A DNA stretch of 64,000 nt from Dehalococcoidia bacterium (GCA_965262385.1 CBDHFB010000016.1:3510032-3574031); one strand, 5' to 3'. Counted from the first letter of the stretch, positions 3,011-3,283 are shown. Notes: generated from the letters alone by a model not told the origin. Program-made: numbers and translations.

Positions 3011-3071
3011 CTTGATGTCGCTTCAAACGTACACCTGACCCACACTCAATGCCAACCCAGACTTCTGAGAC

Positions 3072-3283
3072 TGCGATGATGAATCCCGGGCCACCTCGGC
3101 TCGGGCCTGACCCTTTCTGAGACTGGCATCATGCCTTCAGCCTGATCTGTCGACTCGAGTCGAGGTGGCACCCGAAGTGCCTTTGGCAAGGCGAGCAGTG
3201 ACCTTATAGGAGCCTGGCCCCACGCCCCATCGCAGTCTTTTGTCCGCTCACCTGGCCGGCGCGCAATCCTCCGGGAGGTAGAA
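3072..3283 (+). ncRNA. Candidate IS110 bridge (guide) RNA in the 212-nt leader upstream of the transposase
   Basis: Stem ccacctcg (3091-3098) / cgaggtgg (3161-3168) encloses two guide-like strings. The first is ttctgagactg (3115-3125), identical to the left junction 3063-3073. The second is agcctgat (3139-3146), the rc of the right junction atcaggct 4371-4378. In addition, catcgcagtc (3228-3237) is the rc of gactgcgatg 3069-3078. Position and guide-like matches fit published IS110-group bridge RNAs. No covariance model was run. Confidence 0.4.

What the first reader, a model, noticed from the sequence alone, without database searches (positions are those of the whole stretch)
3063..3125. Occupied and empty IS110 target sites in one window differ by single bases within a 9-mer that is repeated inside the IS110 leader
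The window holds four IS1182 termini. The two occupied ones read ttctgagac|IS110|aggctc (3063-3071; rc at 1438-1446). The two empty ones read ttgtgagac|aggctc (rc of 11684-11698) and ttctgggac|aggctc (13349-13363). The IS110 leader contains ttctgagactg at 3115-3125. This is an exact 11/11 copy of the occupied left junction, so each empty site carries one mismatch to it. If that string is a target guide, the mismatches would explain why IS1182 copy 2 is unoccupied.
Basis: partly seen in the sequence, partly recalled or inferred. Interest (0 to 1): 0.7.

Follow-up and report, generated by a model that had tools for sequence, protein, structure and literature searches.

The report
IS110 bridge-RNA target guide, rediscovered
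The repeated 9-mer is the target-guide segment of the bridge RNA that steers this IS110 insertion sequence into the end repeats of another insertion sequence, a mechanism known since 2024, and related genomes show that the single-base differences at the empty sites do not by themselves block insertion.

Summary
Every string and coordinate in the finding is correct. The window holds two 99.85%-identical IS110-group elements (136-1437 minus strand, 3072-4373 plus strand). Each sits 8 bp inside a terminal inverted repeat of IS1182 copy 1. IS1182 copy 2 (11682-13365) has both repeats empty, each one base away from TTCTGAGAC.

The leader copy, TTCTGAGAC at 3115-3123, is the left target guide (LTG) of a bridge RNA of the IS621 type. 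The leader also carries a right target guide, AGCCTG, and two donor guides with handshake bases. It folds into two conserved stem-loops. Joining the element's two ends creates a promoter.

In 60 non-redundant insertions of relatives from Dehalococcoidia MAGs and ENA contigs, guide and flank co-vary (0 of 20000 shuffles reach the observed match).

The claim that the mismatches explain the empty sites is only weakly supported:
- Elements with the same guide occupy TTGTGAGAC (L012, L035) and TTCTGGGAC (L026).
- 13 of 25 such insertions carry exactly one mismatch.
- In L162 a mismatched repeat is occupied while a perfect one about 150 nt away is empty.

In one MAG, half of the insertions lie at sites that match a co-resident subfamily's guide. 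This suggests guidance in trans.

Verdict: a new member of a known kind, of modest interest.

The parts
3072..4373 (+). IS110-group element, copy B (1302 bp): 212-nt left end encoding the bridge RNA, recombinase ORF, 16-nt right end
   Evidence: Boundaries come from comparison with the empty sites and with copy A. Copies A and B differ at 2 of 1302 positions.
136..1437 (-). IS110-group element, copy A, inverted relative to B, in the other terminal repeat of IS1182 copy 1. Recombinase ORF 152-1225, LTG 1386-1394, RTG 1365-1370.
3063..3071 (+). Left half of the occupied target (LT, ending in the crossover C) in the IS1182 copy 1 terminal repeat; the counterpart for copy A is 1438-1446 (-)
4374..4381 (+). 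Right half of the occupied target (AGGCT) plus the remaining tip of the IS1182 repeat (AGGCTCAA); the counterpart for copy A is 128-135 (-)
3090..3169 (+). Target-binding stem-loop of the bridge RNA: an outer stem, an internal loop carrying LTG and RTG, and an apical hairpin at 3125-3135
   Evidence: RNAalifold consensus and pair counts: 97.6% of cells paired against about 41% when partners are slid, with compensatory changes in 5 pairs over the whole structure.
3115..3123 (+). Left target guide (LTG) TTCTGAGAC, same sense as the target top strand. The following TG (3124-3125) is invariant and belongs to the CT core position and the hairpin stem.
   Evidence: Hypervariable patch flanked by the invariant strings GACCC and ACTGGC; co-varies with the left flank across 12 guide types.
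3139..3146 (+). Right target guide AGCCTG (reverse complement CAGGCT = crossover C + AGGCT), followed by the handshake bases AT (3145-3146)
   Evidence: Co-varies with the right flank: AGCCTG/AGGCT, AACCGG/CGGTT, CTCGTG/ACGAG, AAAATG/ATTTT. The 8-mer is the exact reverse complement of the right junction 4371-4378.
3177..3264 (+). Donor-binding stem-loop. LDG TATAGGAGC at 3205-3213 (then CTGG) equals the right end 4362-4370. RDG CATCGCAG at 3228-3235 plus handshake TC at 3236-3237 is the reverse complement of GAC|TGCGATG (3069-3078).
   Evidence: The donor guides and donor ends are invariant in all relatives, so there is no co-variation to test.
3284..4357 (+). IS110 recombinase, 357 aa (DEDD/RuvC-like domain + Tnp domain)
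   Evidence: Pfam PF01548 (8.7e-20) and PF02371 (2.6e-17). PDB IS621 8wt6, E 1.8e-11, with the D, E, D..D and SG catalytic motifs aligned.
4354..4373 (+). Right end holding a TTGACA -35 box. Joined to the left end it forms TTGACA-17 nt-GATGAT (3076-3081), a promoter that exists only in the circular form.
   Evidence: 10 of 12 consensus matches across the joint; no promoter-like site in the linear context.
11685..11698 (-). Empty target in the left terminal repeat of IS1182 copy 2: TTGTGAGAC|AGGCT (13 of 14 matches to the guide; mismatch at LT position 3)
13349..13362 (+). Empty target in the right terminal repeat of IS1182 copy 2: TTCTGGGAC|AGGCT (13 of 14; mismatch at LT position 6)

Best explanation
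The 9-mer at 3115-3123 (and at 1386-1394 in copy A) is the left target guide of a bridge RNA encoded in the 212-nt left end of an IS110-group insertion sequence.

Inferred by analogy with IS621: the element excises as a circle, and joining its ends creates a TTGACA-17-GATGAT promoter that transcribes the leader. The RNA folds into two stem-loops.
- In the second loop, the LDG UAUAGGAGC and the RDG CAUCGCAG recognise the joined element ends.
- The two bases after each right-hand guide (AU and UC) are handshake bases complementary to the partner DNA.

The DEDD/Ser recombinase then exchanges strands at the shared C. This places the element 8 bp inside the terminal inverted repeat (TTGAGCCTGTCTCAGAAGT) of IS1182-family elements, which is the natural target of this subfamily.

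Shown here: the sequence matches, the conserved fold, the guide-flank co-variation, the recombinase family and the junction promoter consensus. Inferred: transcription, pairing and catalysis.

The single mismatches at the two empty repeats of IS1182 copy 2 probably lower the insertion rate somewhat. They are not the decisive reason the sites are empty. Low, unsaturated transposition is enough to explain that.
For: - Family: Pfam DEDD_Tnp_IS110 + Transposase_20; IS621 structure 8wt6 at E 1.8e-11 with catalytic motifs aligned.
- Anatomy: LTG, RTG, LDG and RDG are all present, with exact copies or reverse complements at the junctions. The published definition of an LTG is 9 nt including the core, same sense as the top strand (PMC11208160). 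Handshake guides follow RTG and RDG as in IS621 (PMC11208158).
- Fold: the two stem-loops are conserved in 14 diverse leaders, with 97.6% of cells paired against about 41% for slid controls and 5 compensatory pairs.
- Co-variation: over 60 non-redundant placements, 8.77 of 11 variable positions match the element's own guide, against 6.38 when shuffled (0 of 20000 shuffles reach it). Outside one MAG the mean is 9.97 of 11. The RTG also tracks its flank within the TTCCAGGAC group: L032 exactly (AGGCT/AGGCT), L163 exactly (AGGTT/AGGTT), and L036 at 4 of 5 positions (CGACT/CGGCT).
- Promoter: present only across the joined ends.
- Against a decisive role for mismatches:
  - The same guide is inserted at TTGTGAGAC (L012, L035), TTCTGGGAC (L026), TTATGAGAC (L014, L017, L162), TCCTGAGAC (L018, L023) and TTTTGAGAC (L040).
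  - The right flank AAGCT appears in 8 insertions.
  - In L162 a perfect site is empty beside an occupied mismatched one.
  - A perfect 9-mer with the wrong right half is empty at 63159.
Against: - No RNA, circle or activity data exist for this element.
- Rfam 15 has no matching family, so the RNA assignment rests on anatomy and co-variation.
- The single-sequence fold is not more stable than shuffles (z = -0.58).
- The donor guides cannot be tested by co-variation because the donor ends are invariant.
- The LDG aligns to the right end only if two bases (AT) are skipped.
- The second 'core' base differs between donor (T) and target (A or C), unlike the shared CT core of IS621.
- In MAG CBDCXW, 14 of 28 placements do not match the element's own guide. 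This needs an extra assumption: trans guidance or recombination between elements.
- The loci were fetched because they contain an IS110, so occupancy fractions are biased upward.
Confidence: 0.85

Rival explanations
1. One reading: the single-base mismatches to the guide are the reason both repeats of IS1182 copy 2 are unoccupied. On this view, one mismatch in the 9-mer effectively prevents insertion.
For: - In the window, the two perfect sites are occupied and the two 13-of-14 sites are empty.
- In small two-repeat host elements, the occupied repeat matches better than the empty one in 4 of 6 cases. These are L016, L022, L024 and L028/L161. L026 is a tie.
- ISPpu10 scanning shows position-dependent penalties.
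Against: - Both variants are occupied by same-guide elements elsewhere: L012 and L035 for the G variant, L026 for TTCTGGGAC. L038 is also inserted at the G variant.
- 13 of 25 natural insertions carry exactly one mismatch, and LT position 3 is the most tolerant LT position.
- L162 shows the reverse pattern: the perfect repeat is empty and the mismatched one is occupied.
- With n = 4 sites in the window there is no statistical power; the best possible one-sided Fisher p is 0.17.
Confidence: 0.2
2. Copy 2 is empty simply because transposition is rare and the targets are not saturated. Which IS1182 ends are hit reflects chance, time since arrival of each copy, and perhaps local reinsertion after the first hit on copy 1. 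Mismatches contribute at most a modest rate reduction.
For: - Perfect sites that are empty exist. One is in L162, next to a resident element. Both repeats of an IS1182 relative in L160 are another case.
- The window also holds a perfect, empty target for another subfamily at 49665-49678.
- Copies A and B differ by only 2 of 1302 bases. That is consistent with a recent local duplication onto the neighbouring repeat.
Against: - It is not known whether the L160 genome carries an element with this guide.
- No perfect empty site was seen in the window itself.
- The trend in the two-repeat hosts favours the better-matching repeat.
Confidence: 0.6
3. The 11-mer in the leader is not an RNA guide. It would instead be a chance repeat, a footprint of a junction duplication, or a subterminal protein-binding repeat.
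For: - The last two bases (TG) and the preceding GAC are invariant in all relatives, so part of the 11-mer match is structural.
- The single-sequence fold is not unusually stable.
Against: - The six variable bases change in step with the flank across 12 guide types, and a second patch (the RTG) tracks the other flank as a reverse complement.
- The patch lies in a conserved internal loop.
- The chance recurrence of an 11-mer in 212 nt is about 5e-5.
Confidence: 0.03

Closest known systems
IS621 (E. coli) bridge RNA / IS110 recombinase system (Durrant et al. 2024, PMC11208160; Hiraizumi et al. 2024, PMC11208158)
   Same: - DEDD + Tnp recombinase with aligned catalytic motifs.
- Bridge RNA in the left end, upstream of the recombinase gene.
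- A 9-nt LTG in the same sense as the target top strand, and an RTG as the reverse complement of the right half.
- LDG and RDG for the joined ends.
- Handshake bases after RTG and RDG. Both the TBL handshake AU and the donor positions 6-7 (AT before CT) are the same as in IS621.
- A promoter created at the circle junction.
   Different: - Only about 25-30% protein identity in the aligned parts (E 1.8e-11).
- The target is the terminal repeat of IS1182-family elements, not REP sequences.
- The second core base is T in the donor and in the LTG, but A or C in the target and in the RTG. Only one base (C) is shared between donor and target.
- The LDG matches the right end only with a 2-nt skip.
- The RTG is 6 nt including the C.
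- No experimental data exist for this element.
ISPpu10 (Pseudomonas putida) bridge RNA element (bioRxiv 10.64898/2026.03.19.712850)
   Same: IS110-group element with TBL and DBL guides. Mismatch scanning shows that LTG positions distal to the core tolerate mismatches while core-proximal ones do not. This parallels the natural mismatch spectrum seen here: LT position 3 is most often mismatched, and GAC is almost never mismatched.
   Different: ISPpu10 needs a hairpin in the target and inserts in REP-like intergenic repeats. No such requirement was examined here. In ISPpu10 the RTG is reported as rigid, whereas here a right-flank G-to-A change (AAGCT) is the commonest natural mismatch.
IS4321 / IS5075 (IS1111 group), which insert into the terminal inverted repeats of Tn21-family transposons
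   Same: An IS110-family element specialised on the terminal inverted repeat of another mobile element, at a fixed position and orientation. Insertion is likely to disable that end.
   Different: IS1111-group elements carry the guide RNA (seekRNA) downstream of the recombinase gene and have subterminal inverted repeats. The present element is IS110-group, with the RNA upstream, and its host is an IS1182-family IS in Dehalococcoidia.

Membership tests
IS110 family, IS110 group (bridge-RNA-guided recombinase elements) | Recombinase with an N-terminal DEDD (RuvC-like) domain and a C-terminal Tnp domain with a catalytic serine | tested here: met
   PF01548 (8.7e-20) and PF02371 (2.6e-17). The alignment to IS621 8wt6 shows GVDTH/GIDTA, GIEGTG/CIEATG, KSDSTDA/KTDTVDA and ASSGK/YESGS aligned.
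IS110 family, IS110 group (bridge-RNA-guided recombinase elements) | No terminal inverted repeats and no target-site duplication; long non-coding left end upstream of the gene and a short right end | tested here: met
   The ends are TGCGATGATG... and ...TATAGGAGCATC. Only a single C is ambiguous between element and target. The left end is 212 nt and the right end 16 nt.
IS110 family, IS110 group (bridge-RNA-guided recombinase elements) | Leader folds into two stem-loops, each with an internal loop (target-binding and donor-binding) | tested here: met
   Consensus fold of 14 leaders; 45 pairs, 97.6% of cells paired against about 41% when slid; 5 pairs with compensatory changes. No Rfam model exists for comparison.
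IS110 family, IS110 group (bridge-RNA-guided recombinase elements) | LTG and RTG complementary to the two halves of the target and co-varying with them | tested here: met
   12 guide types over 60 unique placements. Own-guide match is 8.77 of 11 against 6.38 shuffled, with 0 of 20000 shuffles reaching it. The exceptions are confined to one MAG and match co-resident guides.
IS110 family, IS110 group (bridge-RNA-guided recombinase elements) | LDG and RDG complementary to the joined element ends | tested here: met
   TATAGGAGC (3205-3213) equals the right end. CATCGCAG(TC) is the reverse complement of (GA)CTGCGATG. The ends are invariant, so there is no co-variation, and the LDG needs a 2-nt skip over AT.
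IS110 family, IS110 group (bridge-RNA-guided recombinase elements) | The same core dinucleotide in donor and target, read by all four guides | tested here: not met
   Only the C is shared. Position 9 is T in the donor, the LTG, the LDG and the RDG. It is A or C in the target and in the RTG. Left junctions always carry T, and right junctions keep the target base. This is a variant of the canonical CT-core rule, not an absence of a crossover site.
IS110 family, IS110 group (bridge-RNA-guided recombinase elements) | Handshake guides after RTG and RDG, complementary to positions 6-7 of the non-cognate DNA | tested here: met
   The RTG is followed by AT, matching donor ..GC-AT-CT. The RDG is followed by TC, the complement of the invariant target GA.
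IS110 family, IS110 group (bridge-RNA-guided recombinase elements) | Promoter reconstituted at the junction of the circular form | tested here: met
   TTGACA-17-GATGAT spans the right-end/left-end joint and is absent from the linear context. This is a consensus match only.
IS110 family, IS110 group (bridge-RNA-guided recombinase elements) | Bridge RNA is expressed, binds the recombinase and directs recombination | not testable with these tools
   Needs RNA-seq and in vivo or in vitro recombination assays.
IS1182 family (host element) | DDE transposase with DUF772 + DDE_Tnp_1_6 domains, flanked by terminal inverted repeats | tested here: met
   PF05598, PF13751 and PF01609. A 19-nt inverted repeat, 89% complementary, lies at 11682-11700 / 13347-13365.

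The most novel reading that the evidence does not exclude
Co-resident IS110 subfamilies that share identical donor ends, but carry different target-binding loops, may guide each other's insertions in trans.

In MAG CBDCXW, 14 of 28 non-redundant placements lie at sites that do not match the element's own guide (1-7 of 11 variable positions). They match the guide of another resident subfamily instead (8-11 of 11). None of 32 placements in other genomes does this (Fisher p = 2e-6). Two sub-lineages of the window-type element each have members at both kinds of site.

In IS621 the target- and donor-binding loops of one synaptic complex come from two different RNA molecules, so such mixing is mechanistically expected. 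If the reading is right, an IS110 element's insertion sites are set by the cell's pool of bridge RNAs and not only by its own leader. Guide diversification within a genome would then open new targets to all relatives at once.
Probability: 0.5. Interest if true: 0.6.

Novelty: new member of a known kind. Interest (0 to 1): 0.3.

Why it matters
For the finding as written, the mechanism is the bridge-RNA guidance published in 2024, so nothing new about how IS110 elements choose targets is revealed. The value is confirmatory. An unannotated Dehalococcoidia element shows the full bridge-RNA anatomy, and a large natural family gives a clean guide-flank co-variation series. That series includes a natural mismatch spectrum, with LT position 3 and the second right-flank base being tolerant. 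The spectrum could inform off-target rules for bridge recombinases.

Two by-products may interest specialists:
- Apparent trans-guidance between co-resident subfamilies.
- A family in which donor and target share only one core base, with a completely one-sided junction outcome. This bears on the open question of which strand exchange fixes the product.

Tried and rejected
- Rfam at gathering threshold on the whole window and at E <= 10 on the leader gave nothing relevant, only sub-threshold C/D-box snoRNA noise on the GATGATGA start. Rfam 15 appears to have no bridge RNA model.
- Exact-sequence look-ups of the window's IS1182 and IS110 proteins were not on record. The source genome could not be extended for a full census.
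- The metagenome scan with the IS1182 transposase returned only relatives at 68% identity or less, too distant to score the 14-mer, so it was not used.
- L160 holds an IS1182 relative with both repeats perfect and empty. It is suggestive but not decisive, because the presence of a matching IS110 in that genome is unknown.
- Folding the single leader gave z = -0.58. Structure support therefore had to come from the alignment.
- Relaxed or 'half-match' specificity of the element's own guide was considered as the cause of the non-cognate placements. It was rejected because the own guide matches those sites at only 1-7 of 11 positions, while a co-resident guide matches at 8-11.
- Gene conversion of resident elements was considered as the sole cause. 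It is plausible for the repeated IS21-like site and for clear chimeras (L010, L027, L037, L048). It is less so for the unique sites (L001-L004, L008, L009, L041, L045).
- I could not derive the bottom-strand cleavage position of IS621 from the text alone. The one-sided junction outcome is therefore reported without a strand assignment.

Full report
**Observation**

The window begins with a nested structure:
- 128-135: tip of an IS1182 repeat
- 136-1437: IS110 copy A, minus strand
- 1438-3071: IS1182 copy 1 body
- 3072-4373: IS110 copy B, plus strand
- 4374-4381: the other IS1182 tip

The two IS110 copies differ at 2 of 1302 positions. A second IS1182 copy, 99% identical over 1547 bp, lies at 11682-13365. 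It has a 19-nt terminal inverted repeat, TTGAGCCTGTCTCACAAGT / ACTTCTGGGACAGGCTCAA.

The 11-mer TTCTGAGACTG occurs four times against 0.05 expected. Pfam confirms the families: DEDD_Tnp_IS110 + Transposase_20 for the 357-aa protein, and DUF772 + DDE_Tnp_1_6 for the 493-aa protein. The IS110 insertion point lies 8 bp inside the IS1182 tip.

**What the 9-mer is**

The published definition of a bridge RNA (PMC11208160; PMC11208158) predicts four things:
- a 9-nt left target guide (LTG), in the same sense as the target top strand
- a right target guide (RTG) that is the reverse complement of the right half of the target
- two analogous donor guides (LDG and RDG)
- two 'handshake' bases after each right-hand guide

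All are present in the 212-nt leader:
- LTG: TTCTGAGAC at 3115-3123.
- Apical hairpin: GGCATCATGCC at 3125-3135.
- RTG: AGCCTG at 3139-3144, whose reverse complement CAGGCT equals the crossover C plus AGGCT. It is followed by AT.
- LDG: TATAGGAGC at 3205-3213, equal to the right end.
- RDG: CATCGCAG at 3228-3235, followed by TC.

RTG+AT is the exact reverse complement of the right junction ATC|AGGCT (4371-4378). RDG+TC is the exact reverse complement of the left junction GAC|TGCGATG (3069-3078). Its last two bases, TG, are invariant scaffold and not variable guide.

Other support:
- The recombinase matches the IS621 structure 8wt6 (E 1.8e-11) with the catalytic D, E, D..D and SG motifs aligned.
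- Joining the right end to the left end creates TTGACA-17-GATGAT. The linear context has no promoter-like site.
- Rfam has no family for this RNA.

**Evidence from relatives**

A genome scan returned 79 loci from long-read Dehalococcoidia MAGs encoding recombinases 81-99% identical. Five more came from ENA contigs.

All relatives share the same element ends: GAC|TGCGATGATG on the left and CTATAGGAGCATC| on the right. Their leaders are 81% identical on average, but two short patches are hypervariable, exactly at the LTG and RTG positions.

Guide types and their cognate flanks agree:
- TTCTGAGAC/AGGCT
- TTCGAGGAC/CGGTT
- TAGTGGGAC/ACGAG
- TTCCAGGAC with AGGCT, AGGTT or CGACT
- TAGGGTGAC, CAAATGGAC and TGATGTGAC, each with ATTTT

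Over 60 non-redundant placements, the element's own guide matches 8.77 of the 11 variable positions, against 6.38 on shuffling (0 of 20000 shuffles reach it). Outside one MAG the mean is 9.97.

A consensus fold of 14 diverse leaders gives two stem-loops, with the guides in internal loops. 97.6% of cells are paired against about 41% when partners are slid, and five pairs show compensatory changes.

The string is therefore a target guide, and the mechanism is the known bridge-RNA one.

**Do the mismatches explain the empty sites?**

Not as a sufficient cause.
- Elements with the identical guide are inserted at TTGTGAGAC (L012 and L035, with different right-hand flanks beyond the repeat). L038, an element of another subfamily, is inserted there too.
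- They are also inserted at TTCTGGGAC (L026). These are the two 'empty' variants of the window.
- Further occupied variants are TTATGAGAC, TCCTGAGAC and TTTTGAGAC.
- Of 25 placements of this guide at cognate-like sites, 7 are perfect, 13 have one mismatch and 5 have more. The mismatches concentrate at LT position 3 (6 cases, the position altered in the window's left empty site) and at the second right-flank base (8 cases).
- In L162, a short element of about 170 bp with two IS1182-type repeats has its mismatched repeat (TTATGAGAC) occupied while its perfect repeat about 150 nt away is empty.
- The perfect 9-mer at 63159 with a wrong right half is empty.

In favour of a rate effect, the occupied repeat is the better match in four of six such two-repeat hosts. 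Published screens also show penalties for mismatches, graded by position. With four sites, the window itself has no power. The loci were ascertained through an IS110, so absolute occupancy cannot be read from them.

Both occur, but only in MAG CBDCXW: 14 of 28 placements there, against 0 of 32 elsewhere (Fisher p = 2e-6).

The exceptions are not random. Each site matches the guide of another subfamily resident in that genome at 8-11 of 11 positions, while the element's own guide matches at 1-7. All subfamilies share the same donor ends and donor guides. In IS621 the two loops in one synaptic complex come from two RNA molecules. Guidance in trans is therefore the simplest reading.

Recombination between elements also occurs:
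- L010 has a foreign target stem-loop on a window-type backbone.
- L037 has only its LTG swapped.
- L027 and L048 have hybrid ORFs.

Recombination could account for part of the pattern. An assembly artefact cannot be excluded without the reads.

**Differences from the canonical model**

- Donor and target share only the C. The next base is T in the donor and in three of the guides. It is A or C in the target and co-varies with the RTG.
- Every left junction carries T, and nearly every right junction keeps the target base.
- The LDG aligns to the right end only if the AT that pairs with the handshake bases is skipped.

**Verdict**

The 'guide' interpretation is correct but already known. The 'mismatch explains emptiness' inference is weak. 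The element is a new member of a known kind, and interest is modest. The trans-guidance pattern in a related MAG is the most novel lead.

Noticed in passing
L001-L006, L008-L010, L013, L027, L030, L037-L039, L041, L045, L048 (MAG CBDCXW): Half of the non-redundant IS110 placements in this one MAG sit at targets that match the guide of a different co-resident subfamily, not their own. All subfamilies share identical donor ends. This suggests bridge RNAs acting in trans, or replacement by recombination.
   Followed up: partly
window 3071-3073 and 4373-4375; all loci: Donor and target share only one core base (C). The next base is T in the donor but A or C in the target, and it co-varies with the RTG. 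Left junctions always show T and right junctions keep the target base (exceptions with T on the right: L010, L034, L055). This is a completely one-sided outcome.
   Followed up: partly
window 3205-3217 versus 4362-4373: The donor guide TATAGGAGC-CTGG matches the right end TATAGGAGC-AT-C only if the two bases AT are skipped. Those same two bases are complementary to the AT that follows the RTG (the handshake position).
   Followed up: no
L010:1291-1500, L037:1288-1500, L027 and L048 (ORF 3' ends): Chimeric elements are present. L010 has a foreign target-binding stem-loop joined to a window-type donor loop and ORF. L037 differs from L038 only in the LTG patch. L027 and L048 have ORF tails of another subfamily.
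   Followed up: partly
window 49665-49678 (-) and 49683-49696 (+): There is a perfect, empty target for the TTCGAGGAC/CGGTT subfamily. Beside it is a 12-of-14 target for the TAGTGGGAC/ACGAG subfamily. The sequence corresponds to the repeated site, apparently within an IS21-like transposase gene, that is heavily occupied in MAG CBDCXW.
   Followed up: no
L016, L022, L024, L026, L028, L161, L162 (about 150 nt upstream of each IS110): Short elements of about 170 bp carry two inverted IS1182-type terminal repeats and no transposase (MITE-like). They serve as hosts for this IS110 type, and only one of the two repeats is occupied in each.
   Followed up: partly
window 1447-1600 versus 13190-13348: The two IS1182 copies are 99% identical over 1547 bp but unrelated over the last ~170 bp before the right terminal repeat. 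One of them is therefore a recombinant or a different variant.
   Followed up: no
window 4382-4426 and 11637-11681; also the right flanks of L020 and L024: The DNA just outside the IS1182 left tips is itself similar between copies (87% over 54 nt). It contains the module GGACCTCCCA(C/G)CGAAAAGTTCGCAATT with a small hairpin. This suggests IS1182 prefers a repeated sequence as its own target.
   Followed up: no
window 63159-63167 (-): A fifth exact TTCTGAGAC is followed by GGCCC instead of AGGCT. It is unoccupied.
   Followed up: yes
window 3072-3099: The element start TGCGATGATGAATCC gives weak sub-threshold hits to archaeal C/D-box snoRNA models (best E 0.36). These are probably noise from the GATGATGA box. 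However, a preprint listed (10.1101/2024.06.21.599552) proposes an evolutionary link between IS110 transposases and Nop5 / C/D-box RNPs.
   Followed up: no
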